NCBI GenBank assembly: GCA_021107855.1
Contig: JAIORZ010000006.1
Coordinates: 32,480-96,479, forward strand
DNA from: an archaeon
GTDB lineage: Archaea > Nanobdellota > Nanobdellia > Pacearchaeales > GW2011-AR1
Direction: 5' to 3'
Length of the DNA: 64,000 bases
The notes below the pieces were generated by a model. That model was not told where the DNA came from and did not search any database. It saw only the letters and a program-made list of their open reading frames with translations. This document shows positions 10,139 through 32,553 of the stretch, piece after piece. The position numbers were made by a program, and so were the translations under genes. How positions within the stretch are numbered: position 1 is the first letter of the stretch; each line of letters begins with the position of its first letter.

Positions 10139-10139
10139 G

Positions 10140-13355: not shown

Positions 13356-13555
13356 ACGGAGAATTGTATTGTGGAATAATTAGAATGAATAAAGTTACTG
13401 GAGTTCCTGGACAAGAAGTTGTTTTATATTCTGAGGATGAAAAAAGAGAATTCGATTATAAAACTAAGACACATGAGAAAGATATTGAAAGTTATCTCTG
13501 GATTGTAAATCCTGACAATATGCAAACGTTGATGGAGGCCACATTATTAGAATGA
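13352..13555 (+). CDS. small ORF (67 aa) in the L13-S9 spacer; paralogous to 12754-12966
   Basis: See 12754-12966; both ORFs fill unusually long (~180-195 nt) spacers inside a normally compact operon. Confidence 0.3.
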   Translation: MNGELYCGIIRMNKVTGVPGQEVVLYSEDEKREFDYKTKTHEKDIESYLWIVNPDNMQTLMEATLLE

Positions 13556-14523: not shown

Positions 14524-14540
14524 GGTGTGTTTGTTTTTTT

Positions 14541-15958: not shown

Positions 15959-16151
15959 TTTTGATTATGGCTTTCCAGTAGATTTTAGTTCGGCCTTTTT
16001 TCTCGAGCCATCCCTTTTCATGCATTTCTTCGAGATATTTCTCTGTGGTGTTCCAGGATATTTTTGTGGCTTTTGATATCTCGGTTGTGTTTTGATATTT
16101 AGGATTTTTGATTAGTGTGATTAGGATTTGGGTTTCGTATGGATTTAGCAT
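15948..16151 (-). CDS. small winged-helix DNA-binding protein
   Basis: 67 aa, ETQILITLIKNPKYQNTTEISKATKISWNTTEKYLEEMHEKGWLEKK is a typical wHTH recognition helix plus wing. Confidence 0.5.
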   Translation of the reverse strand: MLNPYETQILITLIKNPKYQNTTEISKATKISWNTTEKYLEEMHEKGWLEKKGRTKIYWKAIIKNEK

Positions 16152-19159: not shown

Positions 19160-19693
19160 ATGGAAATCAACGTTTTGTCGGGATTATTGGATGATAAGTT
19201 GATTAAAATTATTTCGTTGTTTATGAAATATCCCGATAAACGGTTTTCTATGAGTGAGGTTTCGAAGCTCAGTGGGATTAATGGGGCGACGACTTTTAGG
19301 ACTTTGAATAAACTTGTGACGGAGAATTTGATACGGGCGACGGTTATAGGGAAGACGCGGAGTTATCAGTTGTCGCAAGGTGAGAGGACGTCGTTATTGG
19401 TTCGGCTTTTGAAGAAGGATAAGGTTAATGTTTTGGATATTTTCTGTGAGAAGGTTAAGGAGTTGCCTAGGGTTAAGACGGTTTTGTTAGATTCGAATAA
19501 CGTGGACGGGGCTAAGGTTATTATTGTTGGGGATTATCCGTCGAAGGATAGAGTTGAAAAAATTTGTGAGGATATTCAGAGTGATAGGAAGTTTAAGATT
19601 GATTTTGTGGAGTTGACGCCGAAGCAGTATTTGGATTTGAGGAAGTTTGGCACTATTCCTTCGGGGAAGCGGATTTTGTTTACTCGGGCCTAG
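19160..19693 (+). CDS. winged-helix transcription regulator with C-terminal domain
   Basis: N-terminal wHTH (FSMSEVSKLSGINGATTFRTLNKLVTENLI); convergent with the giant gene, 4-nt overlap. Confidence 0.5.
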   Translation: MEINVLSGLLDDKLIKIISLFMKYPDKRFSMSEVSKLSGINGATTFRTLNKLVTENLIRATVIGKTRSYQLSQGERTSLLVRLLKKDKVNVLDIFCEKVKELPRVKTVLLDSNNVDGAKVIIVGDYPSKDRVEKICEDIQSDRKFKIDFVELTPKQYLDLRKFGTIPSGKRILFTRA

Positions 19694-22600
19694 GTTATTT
19701 CCATGTAGAATGCGACGGATGTTTGGGTGGCGGCATGGTATTCCCTGAGTTTTGCTGGAACTCTGAGTTCATAGTCCGTTACCTCGTATGAGCCTGCGGT
19801 GTCTTTGGAAATTCTTGTTACGAAGATTATGTCTTCTTTTTCGGTTGTGTCGTATTCGGAATCTGTGTCGTCGCTGTAGTCCCAGAGGATTCCTGTCTTG
19901 AATGATGAGGAGTTGATTGATGTTGTTACTGGAATGTATGGAATGTGTTTTCCGAATATTGTGAGGTTTTGGGTTTCGTTAATCTCTCCTGCGTTTAGGT
20001 AAAGAGCTTCTAGTGAGTCGGGAAATTGCGTCGAGCCTAGAATTGTGTCGATTTCTTGAATATCATTAGTTGAATTTGCGCCGGATGGTTTCTTGCCGAT
20101 TGCTTGTAGTGTCGTCCAATCTACGTTTGAGTCGTAGTCAGCGACGTAGATTTTGGAGTTTAGTAGACCTGTTTCGTTCCATGTGACTATTTTTGCTTCT
20201 ATTGAATCTGCGAGTTTGAGTTCGCTGTCTGGATTTATATCGCCGTAGAATAGATGCCAACTTGAGATAGTTATGGTCTTGTTTGCTTTGTTGTTTGTTT
20301 CTAAGTTTTCTGTGATTAAATCAGCTGGGTCTACTTTTACAAATATTTGCGTTGCTCCTATTTCTGCATCCCATACGACGGATGCGTTGCTGAAATTTAG
20401 TGCTGAGACTGAGATGGTTTGCGTGCTCCCAATTTGTGTTCCTGTTGTGTCTGGGTCGCCTGAGTAGAATTCGACTTGAACTGATGTGGCGTTAATTAGT
20501 GCTAGGTTGTGGACCGTTGCTGTTATCGTTATGGTTTCGCCTTCTGTTGGAGTTGTTGAGTTGAAGAATATTTGGCTTTGGTTGATTTGGAGGTCTGGGT
20601 ATGTTCGGTTGAAGACGTAGGTTAGGGATGTGTTTGTATTTCCTAGTGTGTCCCAGCATGTTACGTTCCAGAAATGTTGTCCGATGGAAAGTCCTGAGAC
20701 TGATTCTAGTTTTGAGAATCCTGATGTTACTAGGACATTGTCTTCTTCTACATTGCCATCGACGGTTAGGTTACAGGTTAGTAGTGTATCGAGTGCATCC
20801 GTCGCTGTCCAGTTGAAATCGGTGTCTACATCGTTTGCATCAACGCCGGTGTTATTGGGGGGTGAGTTTAGTTGAATTAATGGAGGACTTAAATCTCTTG
20901 AGAAATTTCTATATACGCTCATATTAATATTTGAATCTGTATCTGTACATTCAACGCTCCAATTATGTTTTCCTTCTAGAATTCCTGAAACTGTAAAATT
21001 ATTTATTATATTTTTTATGACTCCTGAGTCGGTTTGGTTTAATTTGTTGTCAATATATATGCTACAATTTACTAGTCCTAGTGCGTCAACTGGTGTGTAG
21101 CTAAAATTAATTGTTGAGTTTGTTGTTAGTATATCATTTGCTGGGCTGTCTAGGTATATTTTTGGTGGCGCGTAAACGGTAAAATTATATATTATGCTAC
21201 TGTTGTAGTTTCCGGCATCGTCTACGCAGGTTGTATTCCAGTTGTGTGCTCCGTCTACTAATAAAATTGGAACAATGTTTGTGCCGTTTATTAGCTCTCC
21301 TGTGAATTCAACGTCTCCGTCTACACTTAAATTGCAAGAGATGGAATCGTCTAGATTTTCTGTGATATTAAATGTGAATGTTACATTGTTATCACCTACG
21401 GTCGCACCTTCTGGCGGGTATATGAAATCTACTTGGGGGGCAGTAGTGTCTACATAGATTTCCCACGTTTCGCTTTCTCCGACCATTAAGGTAATATCTG
21501 TTACGTTGACACTCCAGTTGTATTTTCCGTCTGCTAGCGTTACTTCAAAATAATTATTTGCCCCACTTGTGACTATGGTTTGGTTTGTCATATAGACAGA
21601 ATTGTTAATAATTAATTCCGTTTTGGAAAATCCTTGGTCGTCTTGTGGAAAGTAAGTAAAATTGAAATTGGATGTGTTCACCCAGGAAGCATTTGGTGGA
21701 GAGATGAGAGAGATTCCTGGGGCAGTATACTTTGTGAAATTAAATACTGAAGTTGTGTTTATGTTTGAGGCATTGTCCCAACAGGTTACGTTCCATTCTC
21801 TATATCCGTCCAAGATTCCTGAGATATTTCTGGAAGCGTTCGTTGCATTGGCTAATGCAAAATTTGCATCTACTACTACAGAATCGATAGTCAAGTTACA
21901 AACTAAAAATTCGCTTATTTCATCAATGGCTTCAAATTCGAAGGTTACATTGGAAGTGTATACGTCAATTCCGAGTGGATAATAGGCAATAATATCTGGG
22001 GCATTGTTGTCGATGAACATGACGTTTTCCTCGCTGTAAGCGGCTAGTCCGTAGCTGTCAGAACAATTTACATAATAAGTGTATCTTCCGTCTGCTAATC
22101 CTTCTATTTCGAGATTGTTTACAGAGCCAAGAGATATCCCGGAGCTGACTGTTTCATTTGCTACTCCATTTAGATAGGCTGTGCAAAAATCTATGTCGGT
22201 ATTGTCATAAGGTGTGAATTGAATTGTGAATGAGTTCCCTTGATGGTAAGTCATGTTGCTGTTGTTTAAAAATACCGTGGGAGGTTCTTCTATGGTCACT
22301 AATCTTGTTTCGCTGATTCCGGAGTAACCTGAATCATCCGTGCAATTTACGTACCAGTAAGTTGCTCCATCGTCTAATAGGGAAGAATTCTGGGAGGTTA
22401 TCGCTCCTGAGGTCGCTGAGAGATTTGAATCTATAGAATTATTCACATAAATACTGCAATTTAAATTTGAATCAATTGCATCTGTGACATTAAATTGGAA
22501 GTTTACGATTCCGGATGAAGATGTGCTTTCGTTGTCTGGGTTTACTAGGACAATAGAAGGAGCGTTTAGGTCAACTCCAAAGGTTCTATTCGCAGTTGCG

Positions 22601-25600
22601 TTTGAAGTTAAACTTAAATCATAACAGGTGATGCTCCAATTATAATATCCTTCTGCAAATCCTGAAATTATAAAGAAGTTATTTACTCCGAGATTTATTG
22701 AGTCGTTTGTTTCATTTATTGCTCCATTTATTAATAAATCACAGTGGTCCATTCCTGAAGCATCGTCGGGTAGATATGTGAAATTCATGGTTCCGTCGGT
22801 GTCAATGTAGTTGTCTTCGGGGGAGACTAGGCTTACTGTTGGTGGAGTGTCTGTAATGGTGAATCTCCATGTTTCGCTAGTTGTGCTTCTTGATGATTCG
22901 TCGTAACAAGTGACGTTCCAATAGTGTGCTCCGCCACCTATCGCTCCGGAAGATACGTTTGTTTCGGTGTTGTTTAATGCAGGAACTCCTGTGTGGATTG
23001 TTGATCCGTCTAAAACAATGTCGCAAGATAAATTGCCGTCCATATTGTCGGTAGGTTTGAAGCTTAGATTTATTACTCCAACGGAATGATCTGAATTGTT
23101 TGGTGGGAAAATTAGAGTAACCTCTGGGTTTTCTAAGTCAACATAAAATTCCCAAGTTTCGCTTTGATTAGTTTCGGAGACGTCGGATAAATTGACACTC
23201 CAATTGTAGGTTCCAGAACTTAATCCGGTGATTGTGAAATTATTATTTCCTGAAGAAATTACACTTGCGTTTGTTGCGTTATAAATTCCGTTTAAAATTA
23301 ATGTAGCATTTGTAAAATCTCCGTTTGGGTCTGTTGCGTTGTAAGTTAAATTCCAGCTGCTGCTGTTAATCCAGGTTGTATTTGTTGGGCTGACTAAATT
23401 AACTTGAGGTGCTACGCCTGATTGAACGTTTAATGTGCTTTGGGCATTTGCGTTAGCTGTTTTATATCCACTTGTGACATTTACATCATAACTTCCGAAG
23501 ACACTTGTAGAATTAAAGCTATAATTGAAGAAACCTGTTGAATCTGTGAAGGCTCCGGTATAATTGAATGTTAATTCTTGTAGTTGAGGACTGTAGGTGG
23601 AATTGAATGCTCCCATTTCAATTTTATATTCTAGGTATCTGGATATATTAAGGTCGTCTGTGATGTTTTCGCCATTTGAAATTTCTGTCCAGTCGGTCCA
23701 ACTAATTTTGTCATTTGATGTTCTAATATAGATTAAAACTCCTGTGCAATCACTGGAACTAAAACTTACTGATAATTTTGGTCTGTCAGCTTGGGTTGTA
23801 TATTCTCTGCTTCTGAAAAGAACATTCCCAGAACCTATGGGATGAATTGCAAATCCGTTATTGCTAAGAGTTCTATCTGTCCATCTTTGAACGGTTGATG
23901 TAACTCCTAAGGATTTTGTTCCGGTTGAGGCTGTGCTCATGTATCCTAGGGAAGTTGTATTTATGGAAGGGGAACTTGCAAATCCTGCAGAACTCCATAA
24001 ATCGTCGCTGGTTCTGTATAGATAAGTTACTTCTTCTTCGTTCCAGCTTTGTAATAGTTCATAAAAATTAGGATTGTCTCCTGTGTCATAAACCGTCAGA
24101 CTTAAATTGGCACTGCTAATTGTGGAATTGTAGGGAATCTTATTTAGTCCATAGCCTGTAATATCCTTGAATTTTATGAGGGATCGTTCTGTGTCTGGTG
24201 AGGAGTCGACTGTGAGGAAGGCATCTGTCCCATAGTTTGTATTTTGGTTTGCGCTTGTGACATACGAGTCTTCTGTGCTAGAGTAAGAATTAGAATCTCC
24301 ATCTTGATAACTGATTGTTCCGGAGCATGGCTTTGCTACGGTGCTCCAAACAACGGTGTCCCAATTAACCTTTGCTCCAGCGTCTAAAATTCCGGAAAAA
24401 TTACCGGAAGTGTTTGTTCCGTCAAGTGTAAATTCTCCTCCTGAGTATGTAACATTATTATAGTCGGATAAGATTTCAATCTCATCTTCTGTAAAATTCA
24501 ATGCATTTTCGGAGGAACCTTGATTTGTTAAATTTTCGAGGGGGATGAATGTTCCATTAAACCAGAAGTTGATTGCATTTTTCGGGATTGCTGTTCCGTT
24601 TGATAAATTGAGATAACCTGTCATGAAAATATCTTCTTCTCCTATCGTTGTAGAGGGGTTTAGGTTTAGGTTTAAAATTAAATTTAGGATGTCAAAAGTT
24701 CCGTTATAGGAGTCTTCAAGTCCAGTTGTGTCGTTTGCATAAATTGTGTAATTATAGCTTCCATTAAAGCTTTCGTCTGTTTCTATTATGCCGCTCCAGA
24801 GGTCTCCGAAAATGTTGCTTAGGAAGATTATTGCTTTTTGAACACCCCCGATTGCGCCTTCCCAAATTATGACCCAGACACTATCTGTGCTGCTATCGCT
24901 GACGTTGACATTTATTGTTAGGTTCTCTCCTTCGTATAAGGGATTTGTGGAATTTACGATTTCTCCATCCTCATTTGTTTGGTTGATAAAAGTAATGTTT
25001 GGGGCTGAGGTGTCCACTGTGAATTCTACGCTTTTTATTCCTAAAGCTCCGGAGGTATCATTAGCATATATGAACCAGGTGTTGTTTCCGTCTACTGATG
25101 TGATTCCGGTTATATTTTGGTTACAAGTCATTGTGGTGTTGGTTTCTCCAAGGTTTAAGCTGTACCAACAAGTGTCGAGGGTTACTCCGGTTGCATGGGT
25201 GATGCTATAATTCATTTCTATTACTTGTGTGTTGTAAATATAGGTTTCCGGATAGAGGATGGTAATTGTCGGAGGAGATTCCCATGTGATGTTTAAGTCA
25301 TTAAGGGAAATATTTATGGCGCTGTCTGCAGAATATAGGACTCTGTATAAGAGATTTGAGCCAGGAGTGAATCCTGTTAAGTTGCCGCCGTTGGTAATTG
25401 TGTTCCAGTTCGCTCCGTTATCTACGCTAATTTGGACAGTGATATTATTTGTTGCATTTGTTCCTGTTTCTGCCCAGCCTGTGTATGAGATACTATTTAT
25501 TCCTTGTGATGCATTCATGACATGCGAAGTGAAATTCGCGGTTCCGCCTGAAATTACATCTCTAACATCCATTGTATCAACTCCATACATTAAATTTTCC

Positions 25601-28600
25601 GCAGCAGGAGACAGCCCGGACCAATTTTCATTTCCACTGTAATCAACTCCGCTTGCAGAATAAACCATTGTTGAAGCTGGGCTTAAATAGCTGATAGCGT
25701 TATTTGTTCCGTCGACATAAAAAGAAACCAAATAATCTTTAGAGGAATCGATGCTTAAATTTAACCAATCTGTATATTGTGAACTAGAGGCGGAAATTAT
25801 ATAACTAGTTGCTCCTCCGAATTCTAAAGCGGTCCAGGTTCCTCCGACGCAATCACTTGTTGACCCACTTCTTTCGCAAATAGTTGGATTATTGATTCCT
25901 AAAGAGCCGTCTGTTCCCGAAATGAATTTAATTCTTACAGAATCTCCGCTAGTGTTAATGGAACTAGATTGTAAAATATTTCTGTATGAATATGTGCTTC
26001 TTCCGCTATTTGCCCAAGTGCCATCCCCTGTTTGGTCGTTTGCGTCCCAAGAAATAACAGGGGAGCTTTCAGAAGTGGAAGCGTAGAAGGTCATATTTTC
26101 TCCGTCCCAAATTATACTATTTGTTTCTCTAATTGAAGAATTATCATCAAAAGTATCATAATAATATTTGTCAAAATCTACATCAAAACTGGTGCTATTA
26201 GAGGATGTGTCTCCTACTGAATTGTTTGCATAAAAGGTAATTGTTTGCGAGCTGCCTTCTTCTAAGATTATGGGGAAAATCCAACTTCCTTCGCAGTTTT
26301 TACAAATAGTTTCATTGGCTCCTCCATTAATGGACATTATTAAAGCTGCCGCACTCGAATTAAGTGTGACGTTAATAATGGGGGTGAAATCTTGCTCTAT
26401 TGGGGTTGTAATTCCTTCAATATGGATTCCTGGCGGGGGGTTTATTGTCGTCGACCAAGAAATGTTTAAATCCAATAATGAAAGATATGATAAATCTTCT
26501 ATATCAAAAAATACTCTATAAATGAAATCATCTCCTGTTGTGATAGATGTTAGTCCTGAATTTTTTGTAGCTTCATACCAATGAACACCGTCGTTTGCAC
26601 TTACTTCAATGGTTAAAGAATTATTTGCGTTGCTGTTTGCTTCGTTCCAGGTGATATTTGTAAATTTGGTTATATCGTCGGTTAAATCTACAGAATAGGA
26701 AGTGAAAGATCCGCTTTTTCTACCTCCAGTAATAATTCCTGCAAAATCGTCATGCCTGGCTTCGTCATTTAAATCGTTATAAATTCCTACTTTCCCCTCG
26801 GGATAATAGACATCTGTGGCTTGAGTTGCTAAGACTCCGTCGACATAACAGGAGACAGTGTGGTTTTTTATTTCTAATTTCATCTCGGTCCAAGTACTTA
26901 ATGAATAAGATGTCCCGTCGCTTGTTGTGGAAATGGTGGTTTCTCCGCCATTCGAAACTTCGACAATTTCTGCGTCTATTGGAGCTTGTTGTCGCACTTG
27001 GCATCTATAATAATTTGAGGAATTTTCATATCCAAAAACAAAACCTGAGTAGTCATTATCTGTAGAATATAAATCGTAAGTAAAATTATAATCTGTATCA
27101 TTGTCCATTGTGAATGAATTATAATATGCGATTGCGTCATTTGCATTTTGAGTTTGTCTCAATTCTCCGGAAATTGTTTGCCATTGTCCTCCAATTAAAG
27201 ACCACTCTTGTGAATCTGTAAAATCTTCGTTGATTACTGTGTCTTGGCTTAATTTGAGAGTTATATTCCCATTTAAAGCTTCTATCTCATCTGAGGTATA
27301 AACATAAGAAGAATCATTGAATGAATCATAATAATTATTGTTCATATTTACTGTGAAGGAAACGCTTTCGTGATTTTCTTCTCCCATCGGATTTCTGACA
27401 TAGACATTGACTGTATAGCTAGCTTCTCTTAAGTATAGGACTTCATCACTAGAGCCATTGCAGTTTGTGCAAAGAGTTTCATTTGCTCCGCCGTCTATAT
27501 TGTACCATAGGCTGCTGGCGGGACCAGTTAAATTAATATCTAAAACTGGAGTTGCGTCATTAATGTCTCCAGAAGTTGGATATGAAATTGTGATATTTGG
27601 AAGTTCTTGGTCAACTGAAATTGTGACATTCCAGATATCTGTTATGTCTGAATTAGAAAGATTGGATGTTGAGTTTGCAAAAGCAAAGAAATAATATTTC
27701 GAGTCTAGTTCTCCTGTTGCGTTTACAAAGAATGTAAAAATTTGGCTTTCTCCTTCATTTAGATAACTTGAAGTCAGGGGGTTTGAAGAGGCGTTTGTAT
27801 AGAATGGAGAGCCGGAGCCTACTGGGATAATTCCTTTATTCATGCTTGGGGTTTCGGTTGTGAAATTAACTGAATCTATATACCACCCTTCTCTTGTAAC
27901 GCTGTCGTCTGCGAAGAAATGGAATCTAAAGGTTACATTTTCTCCTGTAAAATTTGAGATATTGGCTATAACGTGTGCAAAAGATCCTGAAGATCCAATA
28001 TATCCATCGCCCCAGATGGCTTCACCATCAACTAAATCAGGTCCTCCGTTATAGTCATTATAATTTGCGTTATATCCTCCGGAAATAAAATTATCAAACT
28101 TTTTCCAGGAACCAGTTTCGTTAATTCTATATTCTAAAAGTCCCCCGTCATAACCGTTATTTTCTACGTACATATAATGATAGAAATCGAATGTGTGGTT
28201 ACCATCTTCTAAATCGTAGGTGGGAGTTACTAGAATTGAATCTGAATAAATCAAATAATTTCCAGATCCGGTGTCTCCGCATTTCCATGCTTGACTTCCA
28301 TTGTGTGTGCTCTCCGTGCTTATATGCCATTGGTCTTCTTTTTCATTTAAAGCAAAGTGTTCGAATCCTTCTGTGCCTGTTTCGAAATCGTTGTAAGTTT
28401 CTACTATTGGGTCTAGGGTCACATTAATTGTTCCACAATTTCCCTGGGTACATGTTAGATTTAAAGTTACATTAAAAAATTCATATTGTTCAACGTAGAC
28501 ATTTGAGGAAGTTGGCCATAAAACTTCTAAACTAATTTCGGGCTCTCCGAGATAGGTTTGGATTCTTAACTCTGAACTATTTGCCCAAGGTGAAAAGAAT

Positions 28601-30696
28601 TCTCCGTCGTAAAGTCTCATGGAGCAGGTCCAATTATCTCCGAGGGTTGTGTTCCCGCTTAATAAGACGCTGTTGAAGGAGGTTCCATTAGAATAGGTAT
28701 TATTATAGTCAATTGTCAGATTAAGAGCATCGTTTTTATACCATTTTACTGAAACGTTCAAATCGTCTCCGTCTATGTTGTCTAGGATTTCGAAACAATT
28801 AAGGTCTTGGTCGGCTTCATTTGAACCGTTTGTGGAATTTATGCCTGGTGTTGGTGCTGCTGGAGCTCTGTTACCGATGAATCCTGTGATATTTATTCCG
28901 TCAATCCAGCTCTCCTCTCCGTTCTGGCTGAATTCTGATTCGAATCTTAGGGTCACAGAACTATCAATTGTGCAACTTCCGAATTCGGGATTGCTTAGAT
29001 TAATTGTGTGATACTTCCATGTGTTTTCATTTCCAGTTCCGGAACACTGGGAACTGTCGTCAGCAGGGTCATTATTATCTTCAGGGTAGCAAGACCAAAT
29101 AGTTGTTCCGTCACATTTTACATCGAGTTCTTCTCCCCAGTCAATTGTTGTCTCATAAAAAGCCCAGAAGGAAAGTATAATGTAATCACAGGCGGCTCCT
29201 CCCCCACAAATATTGGATAGGTCGAAGGTTTGTTCTGAATACGACCCGGCGGCGTTATCTTTTATTTCTAAGCTCCAAGAGCCTACCCCGCTACATTCCG
29301 TATCATTACAATAACTTCTATCGGCACTTCTTGCACAATCACTTCCTCCGTCAATCCATCCGTCCCAGGGAGCTGTGGAATCGGCTTCAAATCCTGTGAA
29401 ATGAATTTCGTATGAAGGGTCGATTACATAATCAAAGGACACATTCCCTCCGACAACTTTCAAATCAAAGACGTCTTGGGTCCCATCTAATAAATCTAAA
29501 AATATTTTGTATTTTTTGAATTCTTTGATTATTCCAAAGTCAGCAATTTTAGTATTTCCGTCCTTTTCATAAACTTCAACGCTGGCGTTATTTGGAGAGC
29601 TGGCATAAATGGTAATATCTTTTGAGCTATCTAATAATTTTTCGAATTCGACTCTGAGGTATTCCCCATCGGCTATGGAAATCGTGACTCTGTCTTGCAT
29701 CCATACTTCTTCATAGACGTTGGAAATTATTTCCCTTTTAGAATTTAAATGTATGGCATTAGAGATTAGGATGATTTCAAATGTTTGGGTAGATAGGTGG
29801 GGGGCAATCCATTCGATATAATCAATTAAGGAATCGTTATCTAAATCAAAAGCTTTAAAATTTAAACTTATTTTTCCCTCAACCCAATAAACATTTATCA
29901 AATCTTTATTTTCAAGGAGAAATTTCTCTGAAACATTTGTATAGACTAAAACATTTTCATAATGTAAATCAGAAGAAACTTCTACTTCCTTTTTGTTTTC
30001 TGAGATTATTCTTTCTTTCTTTATTGGCGCTGGAGTTTCGTATTCTATTTTTGCACCTTCTGGTAATTCTGATACAGCAATTGTTTTTTCGTCTTCGCTA
30101 GATATTATGTTTGATACGCTTTCTATTAATGATGTTTTTACTTTGAAATCTAATGATTTGTTATTTGATAATATTGAAATATTTGTAGATGATTTGGGAA
30201 TTTTTATTTGTATATTTTTTCCTGAAGGTATTTCTTCTTCCCATTTTACTGGTTTCCCGACTACTATTTGAGAATAATTTTCTTTTGCTTGTTCGATTTT
30301 ATTTATGTTTACTTCTTTATTTGTTTTTGGGATTTCTTCTGTGTTTTCTTCTGGTGTTTCTATTTTATTCTGTTCGTCTTTTTTTGATTTTACTACTTTG
30401 AAAAATATTTGTCTTGACTCTGTCTCTGATTTTATATCTACTACGTAATCTCCTAAGTAATCTGGTTTGAATAAAAAATAGGGTTTGTTTGATTTGTAGA
30501 GGAGTGTTTGTTCTGGTGTTTGGATTGTTATGGCGTAACTGCCTATTTCGCCTATGTTTATTTTGATTTTTTCCCCTAATTCATAAACTTGTTCTGGCAC
30601 AGCCGAGCTTAGGAATATTAAGAAAATTGGTATTATTGCGGTTAAAATTACTATAAATTTCACCGCTCCTACTTTTGACATACATCTTTTATTCAT
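19690..30696 (-). CDS. giant (3668 aa) secreted/surface multidomain protein (adhesin-like). N-terminal signal anchor, MAM-like and ConA/LamG-like (DUF1080-like) beta-sandwich domains, FN3-like modules, about 12 tandem ~95-aa Ig-like repeats, a CARDB domain
   Basis: Uninterrupted 11-kb ORF. Hydrophobic N-terminus. WSLIGGQWQTISGELRQ (DUF1080/ConA-like start). Repeats with YNWSVNLSD / YWNVTCYD / HNWNTTCVD signatures. CARDB-like TEGETITITATVHNLALINATSVQVEFYSG...ETNNKANKTITI. Extreme N-x-S/T density. Confidence 0.85.
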   Translation of the reverse strand: MNKRCMSKVGAVKFIVILTAIIPIFLIFLSSAVPEQVYELGEKIKINIGEIGSYAITIQTPEQTLLYKSNKPYFLFKPDYLGDYVVDIKSETESRQIFFKVVKSKKDEQNKIETPEENTEEIPKTNKEVNINKIEQAKENYSQIVVGKPVKWEEEIPSGKNIQIKIPKSSTNISILSNNKSLDFKVKTSLIESVSNIISSEDEKTIAVSELPEGAKIEYETPAPIKKERIISENKKEVEVSSDLHYENVLVYTNVSEKFLLENKDLINVYWVEGKISLNFKAFDLDNDSLIDYIEWIAPHLSTQTFEIILISNAIHLNSKREIISNVYEEVWMQDRVTISIADGEYLRVEFEKLLDSSKDITIYASSPNNASVEVYEKDGNTKIADFGIIKEFKKYKIFLDLLDGTQDVFDLKVVGGNVSFDYVIDPSYEIHFTGFEADSTAPWDGWIDGGSDCARSADRSYCNDTECSGVGSWSLEIKDNAAGSYSEQTFDLSNICGGGAACDYIILSFWAFYETTIDWGEELDVKCDGTTIWSCYPEDNNDPADDSSQCSGTGNENTWKYHTINLSNPEFGSCTIDSSVTLRFESEFSQNGEESWIDGINITGFIGNRAPAAPTPGINSTNGSNEADQDLNCFEILDNIDGDDLNVSVKWYKNDALNLTIDYNNTYSNGTSFNSVLLSGNTTLGDNWTCSMRLYDGEFFSPWANSSELRIQTYLGEPEISLEVLWPTSSNVYVEQYEFFNVTLNLTCTQGNCGTINVTLDPIVETYNDFETGTEGFEHFALNEKEDQWHISTESTHNGSQAWKCGDTGSGNYLIYSDSILVTPTYDLEDGNHTFDFYHYMYVENNGYDGGLLEYRINETGSWKKFDNFISGGYNANYNDYNGGPDLVDGEAIWGDGYIGSSGSFAHVIANISNFTGENVTFRFHFFADDSVTREGWYIDSVNFTTETPSMNKGIIPVGSGSPFYTNASSNPLTSSYLNEGESQIFTFFVNATGELDSKYYFFAFANSTSNLSNSDITDIWNVTISVDQELPNITISYPTSGDINDATPVLDINLTGPASSLWYNIDGGANETLCTNCNGSSDEVLYLREASYTVNVYVRNPMGEENHESVSFTVNMNNNYYDSFNDSSYVYTSDEIEALNGNITLKLSQDTVINEDFTDSQEWSLIGGQWQTISGELRQTQNANDAIAYYNSFTMDNDTDYNFTYDLYSTDNDYSGFVFGYENSSNYYRCQVRQQAPIDAEIVEVSNGGETTISTTSDGTSYSLSTWTEMKLEIKNHTVSCYVDGVLATQATDVYYPEGKVGIYNDLNDEARHDDFAGIITGGRKSGSFTSYSVDLTDDITKFTNITWNEANSNANNSLTIEVSANDGVHWYEATKNSGLTSITTGDDFIYRVFFDIEDLSYLSLLDLNISWSTTINPPPGIHIEGITTPIEQDFTPIINVTLNSSAAALIMSINGGANETICKNCEGSWIFPIILEEGSSQTITFYANNSVGDTSSNSTSFDVDFDKYYYDTFDDNSSIRETNSIIWDGENMTFYASTSESSPVISWDANDQTGDGTWANSGRSTYSYRNILQSSSINTSGDSVRIKFISGTDGSLGINNPTICERSGSTSDCVGGTWTALEFGGATSYIISASSSQYTDWLNLSIDSSKDYLVSFYVDGTNNAISYLSPASTMVYSASGVDYSGNENWSGLSPAAENLMYGVDTMDVRDVISGGTANFTSHVMNASQGINSISYTGWAETGTNATNNITVQISVDNGANWNTITNGGNLTGFTPGSNLLYRVLYSADSAINISLNDLNITWESPPTITILYPETYIYNTQVIEMNYSITHATGVTLDTCWYSLNLGETNTTMTCNQNITGITSVDGNNTWFIYANDTSGALGIKSVEFTVDTSAPNITFINQTNEDGEIVNSTNPLYEGENLTINVNVSDSSTDSVWVIIWEGAIGGVQKAIIFLSNIFGDLWSGIIETDESFNGSYNYTIYANDTTGLEDSYNGTFDILNLILNLNLNPSTTIGEEDIFMTGYLNLSNGTAIPKNAINFWFNGTFIPLENLTNQGSSENALNFTEDEIEILSDYNNVTYSGGEFTLDGTNTSGNFSGILDAGAKVNWDTVVWSTVAKPCSGTISYQDGDSNSYSSTEDSYVTSANQNTNYGTDAFLTVDSSPDTERSLIKFKDITGYGLNKIPYNSTISSANLSLTVYDTGDNPNFYELLQSWNEEEVTYLYRTSDDLWSSAGFASSPSINTTSLGYMSTASTGTKSLGVTSTVQRWTDRTLSNNGFAIHPIGSGNVLFRSREYTTQADRPKLSVSFSSSDCTGVLIYIRTSNDKISWTDWTEISNGENITDDLNISRYLEYKIEMGAFNSTYSPQLQELTFNYTGAFTDSTGFFNYSFNSTSVFGSYDVNVTSGYKTANANAQSTLNVQSGVAPQVNLVSPTNTTWINSSSWNLTYNATDPNGDFTNATLILNGIYNATNASVISSGNNNFTITGLSSGTYNWSVNLSDVSETNQSETWEFYVDLENPEVTLIFPPNNSDHSVGVINLSFKPTDNMDGNLSCDIVLDGSTIHTGVPALNNTETNVSSGAIGGGAHYWNVTCYDESSRSTTSETWRFTITDTPPTVSLVSPEDNYIDTDGTMNFTYLPDDASGMDHCDLLINGAINETNDSINLGVNNFFIISGFAEGYYNWSITCYDLSLTSNATANRTFGVDLNAPSIVLVNPDNESTSSSGIVNFQFNVTDAIDSNLNCSIYVNNSIDSNLSATSGAITSQNSSLLDDGATYWYVNCTDDSGYSGISETRLVTIEEPPTVFLNNSNMTYHQGNSFTIQFTPYDNTDIDFCTAYLNGVANETVSSGISLGSVNNLEIEGLADGRYTYYVNCSDSYGLAAYSEENVMFIDNNAPDIIAYYPLGIDVYTSNVTFEFEAIDEISEFLVCNLTIDSVVVDANFALANATNASRNISGILDGYREWNVTCWDNASNINTTSVFNFTKYTAPGISLISPPNASWVNTSNFNFTYFPQDDQGFSKTELIINNSVYMTNQTIVTSGANNYFEVTLADGKYNWSVNVTDITLMVGESETWEIYVDTTAPQVDFIYPPEGATVGDNNVTFTFNITENLDDSISCNLSVDGDVEFTGELINGTNIVPILLVDGAHNWNTTCVDDAGNYNSSIIYNFTVYAPPKIYLDSPANDILTTNSTINFSYTPVDALGLVNCSIYIDNKLNQTDSGVIKNIINNFTVSGILEGKHNWSVECTDTDSNINMSVYRNFSRDLSPPLIQLNSPPNNTGVDANDVDTDFNWTATDALDTLLTCNLTVDGNVEEDNVLVTSGFSKLESVSGLSIGQHFWNVTCWDTLGNTNTSLTYVFNRTYPDLQINQSQIFFNSTTPTEGETITITATVHNLALINATSVQVEFYSGDPDTTGTQIGSTQTISVSALNFSNASVVWDAEIGATQIFVKVDPADLITENLETNNKANKTITISSWHLFYGDINPDSELKLADSIEAKIVTWNETGLLNSKIYVADYDSNVDWTTLQAIGKKPSGANSTNDIQEIDTILGSTQFPDSLEALYLNAGEINETQNLTIFGKHIPYIPVTTSINSSSFKTGILWDYSDDTDSEYDTTEKEDIIFVTRISKDTAGSYEVTDYELRVPAKLREYHAATQTSVAFYMEIT

Positions 30697-30697
30697 C

Positions 30698-30871
30698 TTA
30701 TAATTTGCCCTCCTTTTCCTTGAGTAATTTGAGAACGGCCATGTTAATAAAGCTTTTAACGGTCGGGTATTCTATTCTTATTTCTTCTTCTTTAAATAAA
30801 TTTTTTACTCTTTTTAGAAGTTTTTCATCAATCTTGACAGTATTTTGAGATTTCTTCTTCTTAGTCACCAT
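30698..30871 (-). CDS. ribbon-helix-helix (CopG/Arc-like) DNA-binding protein, 57 aa (below the ORF-track size cut-off); overlaps the start of the giant gene
   Basis: MVTKKKKSQNTVKIDEKLLKRVKNLFKEEEIRIEYPTVKSFINMAVLKLLKEKEGKL has beta-strand (VKIDEKLL) plus two helices typical of RHH. Its stop at 30698-30700 overlaps the giant gene ATG at 30694-30696. Confidence 0.6.
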   Translation of the reverse strand: MVTKKKKSQNTVKIDEKLLKRVKNLFKEEEIRIEYPTVKSFINMAVLKLLKEKEGKL

Positions 30872-30890
30872 TGGTGACTATTGGTGACTG
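30864..30890. promoter_or_regulatory. putative RHH operator: perfect palindrome GTCACCATTGGTGAC plus an adjacent direct repeat TATTGGTGAC, overlapping the RHH start codon and downstream of a TTTATAAA box
   Basis: AGTCACCATTGGTGACTATTGGTGACTG; a TATA-like TTTATAAAA sits at ~30893-30901 on the same promoter. Confidence 0.45.
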
Positions 30891-31001
30891 CCGTTTATAA
30901 AAGTAGTGATTAAGTGGTAAATTATAGATGTATGTTTGATTTTTGTTTACTGGGTTTGTGATTCTTGGGTGGAATTGTTCTTGTAAGAATTTAAGAATAT
31001 A

Positions 31002-31955
31002 CTAATAGGGAATGGATGATTGTTGATTACCGTATTCTGTTAAATTTTTGAATTCATTTTTTGTGTGTTTTCTTTTTCTGATAAAAAATATTGATACCAG
31101 AGTGATTATGAACATGATTAAAAGTAGAAATAATGCGATTATTCCCATGTTTTGAAGTGCTATATTTTTAGTAACTACAAAGTTGCTTTGTGTCAGTGCG
31201 GGCTCTGTTTGCCCTTCATAAGTTAGTTCTATTATCCAAGTGTATTTCCCGACTGGAAGATTAGAAATATTAATTTCTTTGATAAATTCTGTTTGTGTCT
31301 CAATGGAGAGTGTTTCTTTTTCTTCGTAAACTATTTCTTCTGTGGAATTTTTGATTTTGTAACTGAGATTGGCGATGACCTCTCCTGGAATTCCAATATT
31401 TATTAAGCCAATGGACCCAGATAATATTTCGTCGGTATATCTTTTTAATATTTTGAGATTGATGTCAAATAGAACTTTTTTTATATTTCGTCCGATTTTG
31501 CATTTCCTTTCTGTGTCTGGCTTGTCTGTTTCTATTCCGCAACTATTGTTATCTGTGCAAGTTCTTGATTGTTTTTTATTTATACATTTTCCCCAATTAC
31601 TACATTCCCATTCTGGGATACAGGCTATGTTGCTACCGCTACTTCCGCCGCCGCCTCCGTTAGGATTAGAGATAGGGGCTGGGAAAGTGAACACTAAGTT
31701 TCTGTTTTCACTTATATTTACTGATTGGCTTGAGGTTTCTTCTGATGTGGTTGCATTAATTAAATAGTTTGAATAGTATATTGTTTCACTCGAATTAGTT
31801 TGTGTATATTCAGTTAGAGTTTGCCCAATTGTTTTTCCGTGTTCATTTGTTAATATTGAAAATTTCTGCTTTCCTTCTTTGTCCCAAGCGGTTATATTTG
31901 TGTTGGGGGTTGGGGCTCCATTTGTGTAGTTTGTAAATATGTCTAAATACCACAT
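31002..31955 (-). CDS. surface protein with poly-Gly/Ser linker, Cys-rich module and C-terminal TM anchor
   Basis: NPNGGGGGSSGSN linker; CIPEWECSNWGKCINKKQSRTCTDNNSCG; C-terminal helix IIALFLLLIMFIITLVSIFFI followed by RKRKHTKNE. Confidence 0.5.
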   Translation of the reverse strand: MWYLDIFTNYTNGAPTPNTNITAWDKEGKQKFSILTNEHGKTIGQTLTEYTQTNSSETIYYSNYLINATTSEETSSQSVNISENRNLVFTFPAPISNPNGGGGGSSGSNIACIPEWECSNWGKCINKKQSRTCTDNNSCGIETDKPDTERKCKIGRNIKKVLFDINLKILKRYTDEILSGSIGLINIGIPGEVIANLSYKIKNSTEEIVYEEKETLSIETQTEFIKEINISNLPVGKYTWIIELTYEGQTEPALTQSNFVVTKNIALQNMGIIALFLLLIMFIITLVSIFFIRKRKHTKNEFKNLTEYGNQQSSIPY

Positions 31956-32553
31956 AATGTTTAATGTCCCGTTGGAGCTGCTGGACCAATTTTTTGTTAA
32001 ACTTATGTTTGTAAAATTCCAGTTGCCTTCCTTATTAGTAATAACGCCTGTGGAAAAATTGCAGGATGAAATAAATAGAATAGTTAGTTCTTTTGGTGGT
32101 ACTCCTGGAGTTTATGTTTCTCTTAATAAAACGCAGAGGGCTGCTGAGGGGATACTTCAAAAAAATACGATAGATATAAGTAAATTATTTTTTATAGATT
32201 GTGTTTCGGCGGAAAATACAAAAGAAGATGTTTTGCATATTCCGCCTAATAATTTAAATAATTTGGGCTATGCTATTGGTGATTTTATTAAGGAAATTCC
32301 GGGTAGCAAATTTTTAGTTATAGATGCACTTTCAACTCTTCTTATTTATAATCCAGAAAATAAGGTTGCTGCATTTGTTAAGGAATTAACGGAACGTGCG
32401 TCGAAAGAGGGAGTGGAAGTTATTGCGTTGTCTCCTTCGACAAAGGGGGAAAATCTTCTTAATAAGATATTTAATTTTTTTGATGAGGTGAAAAGAGATG
32501 AAAATGAAGAAAAAGAGGTTAAATATGAAGGGAATGAAGAACTTATATATTAG
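31939..32553 (+). CDS. KaiC/RecA-superfamily-like domain protein without a recognisable P-loop (DUF835-like); true start uncertain
   Basis: Alternating beta/alpha pattern (KFLVIDALSTLLIYNPENKVAAFVKELTERASKEGVEVIALSP) resembles KaiC-like cores; no GxxxxGK[ST]. Confidence 0.3.
   Translation: MSKYHIMFNVPLELLDQFFVKLMFVKFQLPSLLVITPVEKLQDEINRIVSSFGGTPGVYVSLNKTQRAAEGILQKNTIDISKLFFIDCVSAENTKEDVLHIPPNNLNNLGYAIGDFIKEIPGSKFLVIDALSTLLIYNPENKVAAFVKELTERASKEGVEVIALSPSTKGENLLNKIFNFFDEVKRDENEEKEVKYEGNEELIY

What the first reader, a model, noticed from the sequence alone, without database searches (positions are those of the whole stretch)
19690..30871. 3668-aa giant surface protein directly coupled to an RHH regulator gene
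An 11-kb single ORF encodes an N-terminally anchored protein. It is built from ConA/LamG-like (DUF1080-like), MAM-like and FN3-like modules, about 12 tandem Ig-like repeats with Cys pairs (signatures such as YNWSVNLSD, YWNVTCYD), and a CARDB domain near the C-terminus. It has no C-terminal anchor. Its ATG overlaps the stop of a 57-aa ribbon-helix-helix gene, implying co-transcription and dedicated regulation. Proteins of this size and composition in small archaeal genomes are usually interpreted as host or substrate adhesins.
Basis: partly seen in the sequence, partly recalled or inferred. Interest (0 to 1): 0.6.

Follow-up and report, generated by a model that had tools for sequence, protein, structure and literature searches.

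The report
Giant archaeal surface protein with own regulator
An 11-kb gene of a small-genome (DPANN-type) archaeon encodes a secreted, sugar-coated chain of about 35 binding-type domains. It is transcribed together with a tiny DNA-binding protein that probably controls it, and this pairing recurs across related archaea with unrelated regulator types.

Summary
The ORF is real: 19690..30696 (-), 3668 aa, uninterrupted, under purifying selection, and collinear with orthologues of 3662-4396 aa.

It is an all-beta, non-enzymatic modular protein:
- a Sec-type N-terminal signal
- a four-sandwich N-terminal module, undescribed in Pfam
- an InhA-like MAM jelly-roll
- a DUF1080/CBM66-like lectin module
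- a DNRLRE domain
- 10 tandem Ig-like repeats of about 94 aa, 8 with a Cys pair
- CARDB
- a conserved C-terminal domain with no anchor

N-glycosylation sequons are 2.3-fold enriched.

FN3, the first "MAM-like" block and a permanent N-terminal anchor are unverified.

The 57-aa gene is a conserved family. No sequence model calls it RHH, but its predicted fold matches only RHH proteins, non-significantly. It does not overlap the giant gene here. The gap is 1 nt; relatives overlap by 8 nt.

Its promoter has a TATA box and three 10-bp-spaced repeats reaching the start codon. Both are conserved in six diverged relatives, which suggests an autorepressed bicistronic operon.

In 19 of 23 related loci a small wHTH, RHH, Zn-ribbon or AbrB gene sits at the same position.

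The protein is a known kind. The regulator coupling appears undescribed.

The parts
30894..30901 (-). TATA box TTTATAAA of the small-gene/giant-gene operon. It is centred about 26.5 nt upstream of the A of the small gene's ATG, which implies a leaderless or nearly leaderless mRNA.
   Evidence: Sequence. It is conserved at a fixed distance in six relatives whose small proteins are 67-100% identical, while DNA further upstream is unalignable.
30863..30889 (-). Candidate operator of three repeats at 10-bp spacing: AGTCACCAAT, AGTCACCAAT, GGTGACT. The third is in inverted orientation and covers codons 1-3 (M-V-T) of the small gene.
   Evidence: The core rGTsACyAAT is kept in all six relatives. L086 has GGTGACCACT, AGTGACCAAT, GGTGACC. 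M1, V2 and T3 are invariant in 21 homologues. Single copies elsewhere in the window occur at chance level.
30698..30871 (-). 57-aa small gene, a probable ribbon-helix-helix DNA-binding protein (coordinates include the stop codon).
   Evidence: It belongs to a conserved family of 23 proteins at 67-100% identity. pN/pS is 0.18-0.29. The AF2 model has pLDDT 81, with residues 1-15 extended and helices at 16-26, 29-34 and 38-56. The top Foldseek PDB hits are all RHH proteins (ParD2, ParB of pCXC100, Arc, ParD1) with TM 0.5-0.68, but E-values are 0.8-9. No Pfam or PDB sequence hit was found.
30709..30715 (-). Shine-Dalgarno-like AAGGAGG inside the 3' end of the small gene, 12 nt before the giant gene's ATG.
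   Evidence: An equivalent GGAGG or GAGG is present in all five relatives examined.
19690..30696 (-). Giant ORF of 3668 aa (coordinates include the stop codon).
   Evidence: Orthologues: P0083 (3664 aa, 79% identity over the compared residues 425-1624); L083 (3662 aa as called from Met6, 96% identity); 4194 aa and 4396 aa in L086 and L088. pN/pS is 0.14 against L083. No DNA tandem repeats were found.
30598..30696 (-). Residues 1-33: Sec-type N-terminal signal (MNKRCMSKVG..FLIFLSSA|VPE). It is either a cleaved signal peptide or a signal anchor.
   Evidence: It is the only hydrophobic segment. The MNKKxM start and the S-S-A motif at the end of the h-region are conserved in most homologues.
29407..30591 (-). 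Residues 36-430: N-terminal module of four beta-sandwich domains. Motif: IDYIEWxxPHLSxQTFEII ... DITIYA ... FDLK..G..FDYVIDP.
   Evidence: AF2 with a 22-sequence alignment gave pLDDT 81. The best Foldseek hit is SGBP-B 6e57 (E 7e-6), followed by Ig-chain receptors and an F-lectin. No Pfam family matches. There are 534 related stretches in GTDB species genomes, and nearly all of the best 80 listed are DPANN.
28861..29415 (-). Fold unassigned.
   Evidence: Five homologues were found. No Pfam or PDB match. No similarity to the MAM domains of the second giant ORF.
28549..28875 (-). Very common in DPANN giant proteins but unassigned.
   Evidence: No Pfam or PDB match.
27811..28395 (-). Residues 768-962: InhA-like MAM jelly-roll domain.
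   Evidence: Its own Pfam score is 19.9 bits, below the 26.9 cut-off. All 11 aligned homologues hit InhA-like_MAM, best E 3e-12. The profile hits reelin (6e-7) and InhA 4yu5 (9e-6).
26743..27285 (-). Residues 1138-1318: ConA-like lectin module of the DUF1080 / CBM66 type.
   Evidence: It hits TSP_C, Laminin_G_3 and 3keto-disac_hyd, all just below cut-off. Eight of 9 homologues hit 3keto-disac_hyd, best E 9e-11. The profile hits the levanase chains 4b1l, 4b1m and 4azz at 1.3e-13.
25258..27598 (-). Residues 1033-1813: two copies of a ~390-aa cassette made of an Ig-like domain, a jelly-roll and a ~105-aa sandwich 'E'. The jelly-roll differs between copies: DUF1080-like in copy 1, unassigned domain F (1530-1712) in copy 2.
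   Evidence: Self-comparison: 1033-1138 matches 1422-1528 and 1317-1426 matches 1710-1813. Domain F has only a weak hit to the N-terminal domain of the SGNH esterases 7toj/7tok, E 0.004. Domain E has no hit.
23767..24273 (-). Residues 2142-2310: DNRLRE domain.
   Evidence: NCBIfam NF033679, E 1.7e-21, 77 bits against a cut-off of 34.
20599..23568 (-). Residues 2377-3366: tandem Ig-like array. It has one degenerate copy and 10 full copies of about 94 aa, 8 with a Cys pair, at 25-40% identity to one another.
   Evidence: No repeats are detectable at the DNA level.
20281..20598 (-). Residues 3367-3472: CARDB domain.
   Evidence: Pfam PF07705, E 1.8e-9. PDB 2kut, E 1e-4.
19693..20280 (-). Residues 3473-3668: conserved C-terminal domain of unknown fold (WHLFYGD ... 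VAFYMEIT). It has no hydrophobic anchor.
   Evidence: It is conserved to the last residue in the 1237-aa protein of L001, which is 39% identical over its full length. No Pfam or PDB match. No hydrophobic window.

Best explanation
The locus is a two-gene operon of a DPANN-type (Pacearchaeota/Woesearchaeota-like) archaeon.

TRANSCRIPTION AND CONTROL
- Transcription starts about 26 nt downstream of a TATA box, essentially at the ATG of a 57-aa gene.
- That gene encodes a small dimeric DNA-binding protein, most likely ribbon-helix-helix.
- I infer that this protein binds three 10-bp-spaced repeats lying between the TATA box and codon 3 of its own gene. This would repress its own promoter.
- Because the giant gene follows after 1 nt and has its own ribosome-binding site on the same mRNA, the output of the giant protein would be repressed with it.

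THE GIANT PRODUCT
- It is exported through Sec and heavily N-glycosylated.
- It forms a long string of about 35 beta-sandwich domains.
- The N-terminal four-sandwich module and the central lectin-type modules supply binding sites for glycans or glycoproteins. These modules are the InhA-like MAM, the DUF1080/CBM66-like module and the DNRLRE domain.
- The ten Ig-like repeats act as a spacer.
- CARDB and the conserved C-terminal domain form the other end.
- Its most likely role is attachment to a host cell surface or to a polysaccharide substrate.

WHAT IS SHOWN: the ORFs, domain identities, sequon enrichment, purifying selection, conservation of the gene pair, and conservation of the promoter and repeats.

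WHAT IS INFERRED: the RHH fold, binding of the small protein to the repeats, repression, the ligand, and how the protein stays on the cell.
For: ORF and selection
- Searches show the ORF. One search gives pN/pS 0.14 against a 97%-identical strain and 0.31 against L088.
- Independent assemblies carry collinear orthologues of 3662-4396 aa.

Extracellular location
- There is a single N-terminal hydrophobic segment followed by a conserved S-S-A motif.
- Sequons number 178 against 76 expected, z = 13.7.

Binding-type architecture with no enzyme
-.

The small gene is real and always paired
- One search shows the family. Searches show that all six family contexts examined have a homologue of the giant's N-terminus directly downstream, with an 8-nt overlap or a 1-7 nt gap.
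- An SD-like site lies in the small gene's 3' end.

Promoter and operator footprint
-.
- The invariant M-V-T start coincides with the third repeat.

Fold
-.

Generality
- 19 of 23 related loci with the same N-terminal arrangement carry a small wHTH, RHH, Zn-ribbon or (divergently oriented) AbrB gene at the start of the giant gene.
- All 27 motif instances found in 881 kb of related loci lie 80-420 nt upstream of the giant gene and nowhere else.
- The other classes also have conserved or repeated elements around their TATA boxes.
Against: - No sequence model recognises the 57-aa protein as RHH. The profile comparison with genuine RHH partners of related giants is not significant.
- The structural matches have E-values of 0.8-9, and the model has an extra short helix in the loop.
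- No expression, binding or localisation data exist.
- About 45% of the giant protein has no assigned fold: domains A, B, E and F, residues 1915-2140, and the C-terminal domain. A catalytic module cannot be formally excluded there.
- No anchoring device was found, so the protein could be released rather than cell-bound.
- The ligand is unknown. CBM66-type and DNRLRE-type modules also occur in enzymes that act on polysaccharides.
Confidence: 0.65

Rival explanations
1. The protein captures polysaccharide substrate rather than attaching to a host. In this reading it is a surface glycan-binding protein that holds fructan-, xylan- or other glycan-type polymers for a fermentative, free-living or loosely associated DPANN cell.
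For: The strongest module matches are to carbohydrate-handling contexts. The profile of residues 1138-1318 hits the levanase chains 4b1l/4b1m/4azz at 1.3e-13. The best structural match of the N-terminal module is the Bacteroides ovatus mixed-linkage-glucan SGBP-B. A DNRLRE domain is present. The related locus L002 is flanked by glycogen/starch-type genes: GT5, GH57 and a phosphorylase.
Against: The window shows no glycoside hydrolase or transporter genes coupled to the giant gene. The same module types are predicted to mediate host recognition in cultivated DPANN (PMC10266531). The ligand-binding residues were not examined.
Confidence: 0.25
2. The protein is a structural envelope component, such as an S-layer-associated sheath or spacer, rather than a specific adhesin.
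For: It is very large, acidic (pI about 4) and heavily sequon-enriched, like archaeal envelope glycoproteins. The window holds several more sequon-rich secreted proteins and a second giant ORF.
Against: Its architecture is mosaic and changes quickly between close relatives. The N-terminus is 41% identical to L088 while the middle is 65% identical, and the gene is split or shortened in L001. This is atypical of a lattice-forming core component. Lectin-type modules argue for ligand recognition.
Confidence: 0.12
3. The small upstream protein is not a promoter-binding autoregulator. It could be needed for some other step, such as transcription processivity over an 11-kb gene, mRNA handling or export of the giant protein. 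It could also be a remnant of an antitoxin.
For: DNA binding has not been shown. Neither the RHH nor the wHTH assignment for this family reaches significance by sequence. RHH and AbrB folds are also common antitoxins: the hits include ParD and MazE.
Against: Four unrelated folds that share only DNA binding occupy the same position. No toxin gene is adjacent. Conserved repeats with helical periodicity lie exactly between the TATA box and the start codon.
Confidence: 0.15
4. The ORF is an artefact or a pseudogene, arising from assembly collapse of repeats or from a decaying gene.
For: The window comes from a metagenome-type assembly. The protein contains repeats.
Against: There are no DNA-level tandem repeats, and the repeats are only 25-40% identical as protein. 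Independent assemblies give collinear ORFs of 3662-3664 aa. pN/pS is 0.14.
Confidence: 0.01

Closest known systems
[quoted passage not shown]
   Same: It is the largest gene in a small genome. It has an N-terminal Sec signal, long arrays of Ig-like/fibronectin-like domains and lectin-type (LamG/ConA-like) modules. Both are predicted to act in attachment to a host.
   Different: It is much smaller: 3668 aa against 5998-9409 aa. No VirB4/TraG-like ATPase domain was found in it. It has a different lineage (relatives are Pacearchaeota/Woesearchaeota-type MAGs) and a different module set (N-terminal four-sandwich module, CARDB plus a conserved C-terminal domain). The papers read describe no coupled small regulator for those proteins.
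Bacterial giant modular adhesins: Marinomonas MpIBP, Salmonella SiiE and Staphylococcus Embp (papers listed, not read in full)
   Same: Both follow a beads-on-a-string design: a long extender of Ig-like repeats plus a few ligand-binding modules.
   Different: No RTX/T1SS signal, LPXTG sortase motif or outer-membrane retention module was found. The setting is an archaeal envelope with N-glycosylation. The array has only 10 repeats, and they are diverged rather than near-identical.
CBM66 of Bacillus subtilis levanase SacC (PDB 4azz, 4b1l, 4b1m) and the DUF1080 / 3-keto-disaccharide-hydrolase family
   Same: The profile of residues 1138-1318 and its homologues matches these chains at E 1.3e-13. 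Eight of 9 homologues hit PF06439. From my own knowledge, the fold is a ConA-like beta-sandwich.
   Different: The window sequence itself scores below the Pfam cut-off (20.5 against 26.8 bits). Ligand-binding residues were not compared. No catalytic partner domain is attached.
Ribbon-helix-helix autorepressors that bind tandem repeats (Arc, CopG, ParD, ParG/omega-type proteins)
   Same: The protein is small. Its predicted topology is an extended N-terminus followed by two main helices. All the best structural neighbours are RHH proteins. Repeated short sites lie one helical turn apart and overlap its own promoter.
   Different: There is no significant sequence similarity. The inter-helix loop is longer and carries a short extra helix. 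The controlled gene is an 11-kb surface-protein gene, not a plasmid, phage or toxin function.
VARTIG modules of Thermococcales: a hypervariable large Ig-domain protein with variable downstream genes (PMC8416519)
   Same: It is a large archaeal secreted protein with several Ig-type domains, including CARDB-type ones. It shows signs of recombination and mosaicism between relatives.
   Different: The authors found no counterparts outside Thermococcales. Here the variable part is the N-terminal and central region rather than a C-terminal Ig domain. The conserved partner is an upstream small DNA-binding gene, not a set of downstream cassettes.

Membership tests
CARDB (Pfam PF07705) | Match to the family model above the curated cut-off | tested here: met
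   Residues 3367-3472 score 38.2 bits against a 22.7 cut-off, E 1.8e-9. PDB 2kut, E 1e-4.
DNRLRE domain (NCBIfam NF033679) | Match to the family model above the curated cut-off | tested here: met
   Residues 2142-2310 score 77 bits against a 34 cut-off, E 1.7e-21, covering model positions 1-163 of 164.
DUF1080 / 3-keto-disaccharide hydrolase / CBM66 (ConA-like clan) | Match to the family model above the cut-off | tested here: inconclusive
   The window sequence scores 20.5 bits against 26.8, and also hits TSP_C and Laminin_G_3 just below their cut-offs. Eight of 9 aligned homologues hit PF06439, best E 9e-11. The family profile hits the levanase chains 4b1l/4b1m/4azz at E 1.3e-13. Membership is therefore met at profile level but not by the single sequence.
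DUF1080 / CBM66 | Conserved ligand-binding residues or demonstrated glycan binding | not tested
   No residue-level comparison with 4azz/4b1m was made.
InhA-like MAM domain (Pfam PF20773) | Match to the family model above the cut-off | tested here: inconclusive
   Residues 768-962 score 19.9 bits against 26.9. All 11 aligned homologues hit the family at E <= 0.01, best 3e-12. The profile hits reelin (6e-7) and InhA 4yu5 (9e-6).
MAM domain proper (Pfam PF00629) | Match to the family model, or similarity to verified MAM domains | tested here: not met
   E is 0.072 for 768-962 and there is no hit for 428-612. BLAST finds no similarity to the two Pfam-verified MAM domains of the second giant ORF in the same window.
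Fibronectin type III | Match to an FN3 model or to a solved FN3 structure | tested here: not met
   Residues 608-716 and 15 homologues gave no Pfam or PDB sequence match. The fold was not predicted.
Ribbon-helix-helix (CopG/Arc/MetJ superfamily) | Sequence match to an RHH family model | tested here: not met
   There were no Pfam, NCBIfam or PDB hits for the single sequence or for a 21-sequence profile. hhalign against genuine RHH partners of related giants gave probability ~1% and E 0.056.
Ribbon-helix-helix | Strand-helix-helix topology | tested here: inconclusive
   The AF2 monomer has pLDDT 81, with residues 1-15 extended and helices at 16-26, 29-34 and 38-56. Seven of the first eight Foldseek PDB hits are RHH proteins, with TM 0.5-0.68, but E-values are 0.8-9.
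Ribbon-helix-helix | Dimerisation forming a two-stranded sheet that binds repeated DNA sites | not testable with these tools
   Candidate sites exist: three repeats at 10-bp spacing. Neither dimer prediction nor binding could be run.
Nanohaloarchaeal SPEARE-type giant proteins | VirB4/TraG-like ATPase domain within the giant protein (as re-analysed in PMC10266531) | tested here: not met
   No P-loop or ATPase family was hit anywhere in the 3668 aa. A separate 1214-aa HerA/FtsK-like ATPase gene lies 8 kb away.
C-terminally anchored archaeal surface proteins (C-terminal TM helix or PGF-CTERM-type sorting signal) | Hydrophobic C-terminal segment | tested here: not met
   No 19-residue window with Kyte-Doolittle mean above 1.8 exists outside residues 6-35. 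The C-terminus ...VAFYMEIT is conserved and hydrophilic.

The most novel reading that the evidence does not exclude
Across Pacearchaeota/Woesearchaeota-type DPANN archaea, giant surface-protein genes may be self-contained cassettes that each carry a private small autoregulator at their 5' end.

The regulator has been replaced repeatedly by unrelated DNA-binding folds: wHTH, at least two RHH families, a Zn-ribbon and a divergently oriented AbrB. The synteny otherwise stays the same. L090 and L001 share the order 'second-giant-like gene, ~490-aa gene, small gene, giant gene', but one has an RHH and the other a wHTH.

Such per-gene autorepression at a leaderless promoter could let a reduced genome that encodes few regulators switch or meter alternative attachment proteins independently. 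This would be an archaeal analogue of adhesin phase or antigenic variation. It would also let the cassettes move between genomes with their control intact.
Probability: 0.3. Interest if true: 0.7.

Novelty: new variant of a known kind. Interest (0 to 1): 0.5.

Why it matters
How DPANN archaea recognise and hold on to their hosts is an open question. Almost nothing is known about how they regulate the very costly proteins thought to do this.

This locus offers a concrete, testable unit:
- a defined promoter
- a 27-bp candidate operator
- a 57-aa candidate repressor
- a giant protein whose lectin-type modules can be expressed individually

The comparative pattern is that 19 of 23 related loci carry a small DNA-binding gene of one of four folds at the same position. 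This suggests a general design rule for these genes that I did not find described in the searchable literature.

The N-terminal four-sandwich module occurs as 534 stretches in GTDB species genomes, and the ~105-aa 'domain B' is also common. Both are widespread domain families without a Pfam model and would be worth defining.

If the regulatory inference fails, the finding reduces to one more DPANN giant surface protein, which is an already familiar kind.

Tried and rejected
SEARCHES THAT FAILED OR WERE UNAVAILABLE
- The homologue search with the full 3668 aa timed out. A chimeric query (residues 1530-2400 plus 3470-3668) returned only 7 hits because of the candidate cap.
- Whole-protein self-BLAST returned only the identity hit. 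I replaced it with fragment BLAST and an iterated repeat HMM.

TESTS THAT CAME BACK NEGATIVE
- The idea that the 'MAM-like' blocks resemble the real MAM domains of the neighbouring giant ORF: no similarity.
- RHH by sequence: the single sequence, a 21-member profile against the PDB, and hhalign against genuine RHH partners were all negative.
- Profiles of domains A, B and E against the PDB gave nothing. Domain F gave only a marginal hit.
- A regulon reading: single operator-like 10-mers elsewhere in the window occur at chance frequency, 7 observed against 5.3 expected. I therefore do not claim other targets.

OTHER POINTS
- An ungapped codon comparison was invalid because of an indel. It was redone with a protein-guided codon alignment.
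- The window genome itself is not among the GTDB species representatives; the best match is 53% identical. The organism is therefore inferred only from relatives and from an NCBI record named 'archaeon'.
- Pseudogene or assembly collapse was considered and rejected.

Full report
**Observation**

The window has an ATG-initiated ORF at 19690..30696 on the minus strand, 3668 codons long. A 57-codon ORF lies directly upstream at 30698..30871 on the same strand. From the base composition, I calculate that an open frame of this length at 38% GC has a chance probability of about 1e-109.

The two genes do not overlap. The small gene ends with TAA at 30700-30698. One base follows, then the giant gene's ATG at 30696.

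In relatives the small protein is three residues longer and the giant gene's ATG lies 8 nt inside it. In the window, the codon that reads AAA in L086 is TAA. The first ATG is the likely true start, because MNKK(S/C)M is conserved at the N-terminus of homologues. One gene caller instead used Met6, giving 3662 aa.

**Is the ORF sound?**

- TRF finds no DNA tandem repeats in it. The protein repeats are only 25-40% identical to each other, so assembly collapse is unlikely.
- A 97%-identical strain from another run (L083) is collinear over the ~1000 codons fetched; its gene is called at 3662 aa. Against it, pN/pS is 0.14.
- An exhaustive search found a 3664-aa orthologue at 79% identity (compared over residues 425-1624) and further collinear giants of 4194-4444 aa.
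- GC content matches the rest of the window.

**Organism**

- The window carries a 5S rRNA.
- It also carries an archaeal-type cluster with ribosomal protein S4 and RNA polymerase subunit D. I recognised these from the translations; they were not tested against a model.
- All close relatives of the giant protein's N-terminal module are MAGs labelled Pacearchaeota, Woesearchaeota or Nanoarchaeota. The best identity is only 53%, so the genome itself is not among the GTDB representatives.
- The 57-aa protein is identical to an NCBI entry named only 'archaeon'.

**Anatomy of the giant protein (residue numbers)**

| Residues | Feature | Evidence |
|---|---|---|
| 1-33 | The only hydrophobic segment. 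It ends in FLSSA\|V; the S-S-A motif is conserved in most homologues. This fits a cleavable Sec signal peptide at least as well as a permanent anchor. | |
| 36-430 | A module conserved at 35-50% identity in hundreds of large DPANN proteins, with no Pfam family. AF2 with a 22-sequence alignment (pLDDT 81) gives four beta-sandwich domains. Foldseek finds the Bacteroides ovatus surface glycan-binding protein SGBP-B (E 7e-6), then Ig-chain receptors and an F-lectin. No enzyme fold appears. | |
| 428-612 | Domain A, Cys-rich. No match. | |
| 768-962 | InhA-like MAM jelly-roll. Sub-threshold alone; 11 of 11 homologues hit; the profile hits reelin and InhA. | |
| 1033-1813 | Two copies of a ~390-aa cassette. 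| |
| 1138-1318 | DUF1080/CBM66-type ConA-like module within the first cassette copy. The profile hits the levanase chains 4b1l/4b1m/4azz at 1.3e-13. | |
| 2142-2310 | DNRLRE domain, 77 bits. | |
| 2377-3366 | One degenerate and ten full Ig-like repeats; eight have a Cys pair. | |
| 3367-3472 | CARDB. | |
| 3473-3668 | Conserved hydrophilic C-terminal domain of unknown fold. | |

N-X-S/T sequons number 178 against 76 expected (z = 13.7). Predicted cytoplasmic proteins of the window have almost none. This marks the protein as extracellular and probably heavily N-glycosylated.

**The small gene**

- It is a real gene. Twenty-three proteins at 67-100% identity were found, and pN/pS is 0.18-0.29.
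- No Pfam, NCBIfam or PDB sequence search recognises it, whether run with the single sequence or a profile.
- AF2 (pLDDT 81) predicts an extended N-terminus and helices at 16-26, 29-34 and 38-56.
- Seven of the first eight Foldseek PDB hits are ribbon-helix-helix proteins (ParD2, ParB of pCXC100, Arc, ParD1), with TM 0.5-0.68. Their E-values are 0.8-9.
- RHH is therefore the best reading of the fold, but it is not proven.

**Promoter**

Upstream of the small gene lies TTTATAAA at 30901-30894, centred about 26.5 nt before the A of the ATG. For an archaeal promoter this implies a leaderless or nearly leaderless mRNA.

Between the TATA box and codon 3 lie three repeats at 10-bp spacing: AGTCACCAAT, AGTCACCAAT, GGTGACT.

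In six family members whose proteins are 67-100% identical, the TATA box and the three repeats (consensus rGTsACyAAT) keep their positions. Everything further upstream is unalignable.

The third repeat is the codon triplet ATG-GTN-ACN. This may explain why M-V-T is invariant in all 21 homologues.

Single copies of the 10-mer elsewhere in the window occur at chance frequency, so there is no sign of a wider regulon.

A GGAGG-type site lies inside the 3' end of the small gene, ahead of the giant gene's ATG, in all relatives.

**Comparative pattern**

All six examined contexts of the small-gene family have a homologue of the giant protein's N-terminus directly downstream.

I then examined homologues of the N-terminal module in GTDB genomes. 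Twenty-three loci have the same N-terminal arrangement. Their upstream small genes fall into these classes:

| Class | Loci | Orientation | Support |
|---|---|---|---|
| ~70-aa winged-helix gene | 10 | same strand | Pfam HTH_12 above cut-off for one member |
| Genuine RHH gene | 4 | same strand | RHH_1, E 2e-7 |
| Zn-ribbon gene | 1 | same strand | Zn-ribbon models below cut-off |
| AbrB/SpoVT-type gene | 4 | divergent | MazE_antitoxin above cut-off |
| None found | 4 | - | - |

The same-strand genes usually overlap the giant gene by 4-20 nt or lie 1 nt away.

In 881 kb of these loci, scanned in six frames, all 27 instances of the class motifs lie 80-420 nt upstream of the giant gene's start. 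None lies elsewhere.

L090 and L001 share the order 'second-giant-like gene, ~490-aa gene, small gene, giant gene'. L090 has the RHH-like gene and L001 the winged-helix gene. This is non-orthologous displacement within conserved synteny.

The other classes also show conserved or repeated elements around their TATA boxes.

**Evolution**

- The protein is mosaic. Against L088 the middle (residues 619-2603) is 65% identical, but the N-terminus is only 41% identical and L088 carries ~740 extra residues.
- In L001 the equivalent is two genes: a 1028-aa gene matching residues 1-456 plus Ig repeats, and a 1237-aa gene matching residues 2434-3668. The central lectin region is absent.
- Purifying selection is weaker over the first 500 codons (pN/pS 0.23-0.30) than over codons 506-999 (0.05-0.07).

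**Mechanism proposed**

I propose an autorepressed bicistronic operon. The small protein, probably an RHH dimer, binds the three repeats that cover the transcription start. It would thereby limit transcription of both itself and the giant gene.

The giant product is exported and glycosylated, and it acts as a long binding filament. Its ligand, its means of retention on the cell and the repression itself are inferences.

Rivals are:
- a substrate-glycan-capturing role
- a structural envelope role
- a non-regulatory role for the small protein
- artefact or pseudogene, which is essentially excluded

**Relation to what is known**

Giant surface proteins with Sec signals, Ig-like arrays and LamG-type modules are documented in DPANN archaea and are proposed to mediate host interaction (PMC10266531).

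This protein is a new member of that kind, from a different lineage. It lacks the VirB4-like ATPase domain reported for the nanohaloarchaeal giants.

Full-text searches found no paper describing a small DNA-binding gene coupled to such genes. This is absence of evidence within a limited library.

**Verdict**

- There is no literal overlap.
- FN3 and the first MAM-like block are unverified.
- The N-terminal anchor may be a cleaved signal peptide.

The protein itself is of a known kind. The recurrent, fold-swapping regulator coupling and the conserved operator are the parts worth following up.

Noticed in passing
window 52093-64000 (-): A second giant ORF of at least 3929 aa is still open at the window end. 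It has two Pfam-verified MAM domains and several Big_13 Ig-like domains, and it is also sequon-enriched (206 against 92 expected). Its C-terminal ~390 aa are 46-47% identical to the C-termini of giant genes that lie two genes upstream of the small-gene/giant pair in L001 and L090. The source database annotates that region in L001 as AF_1625_C.
   Followed up: partly
window 50198-52108 (-): A 636-aa secreted protein with no Pfam family is homologous (26-32% identity) to the 482- and 492-aa genes that follow the second-giant-like gene in L001 and L090. In those loci that gene directly precedes the small-gene/giant pair. In the window about 19 kb of other genes lie between them.
   Followed up: partly
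window 31002-31955 (-) and 31939-32553 (+): The 317-aa ORF upstream of the operon is the C-terminal remnant of a beta-helix/NosD-type surface protein, which is 1082 aa in strain L083 and 1191 aa in L088. Relative to L088, about 8.3 kb is absent from the window. The missing stretch holds a response regulator, a 1177-aa histidine kinase, a PAS protein, a 185-aa gene, a small wHTH gene and the N-terminal part of the surface protein.
   Followed up: partly
L086 7049-9939; L087 7032-9931; L088 6020-9894: In relatives, the gene before the operon is itself a pair of the same kind. A 65-100-aa winged-helix gene overlaps by 4 nt an 898-1191-aa surface protein, which is annotated beta-helix/NosD in L086 and L087.
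   Followed up: partly
L007 about 5470 and 5712-5894: One Woesearchaeota locus carries both a winged-helix motif gene and an RHH gene in tandem, directly upstream of its giant gene. L004 has two winged-helix motif copies, one of them in a degenerate ORF.
   Followed up: no
window 38991-42635 (-): A 1214-aa ORF combines CarboxypepD_reg-like domains with a HerA/DUF87/FtsK-type P-loop ATPase. It lies between the two giant genes among many genes without a family. Nanohaloarchaeal giant proteins have been linked to VirB4-like ATPases (PMC10266531), so a functional link is conceivable but untested.
   Followed up: no
window 19160-19693 (+): A convergent 177-aa gene with an N-terminal winged-helix domain (sub-threshold IclR/HTH_24 hits, pI 9.7) overlaps the giant gene's stop codon by 4 nt.
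   Followed up: no
window 14978-15958, 16470-17462, 47945-49114 (all -): Three further proteins of 326-389 aa are acidic and strongly sequon-enriched (z = 4-6). The two that were scanned (16470-17462 and 47945-49114) have no Pfam family, and 14978-15958 has a visible N-terminal signal. The window is rich in probable surface glycoproteins.
   Followed up: no
It has no Pfam or PDB match and is a candidate for a new domain family.
   Followed up: partly
window 4000-16000: The plus strand shows very strong GC skew (0.39-0.55) over the housekeeping block (ABC transporter, ribosomal protein S4, RNA polymerase subunit D). Long spurious ORFs appear on the opposite strand.
   Followed up: no
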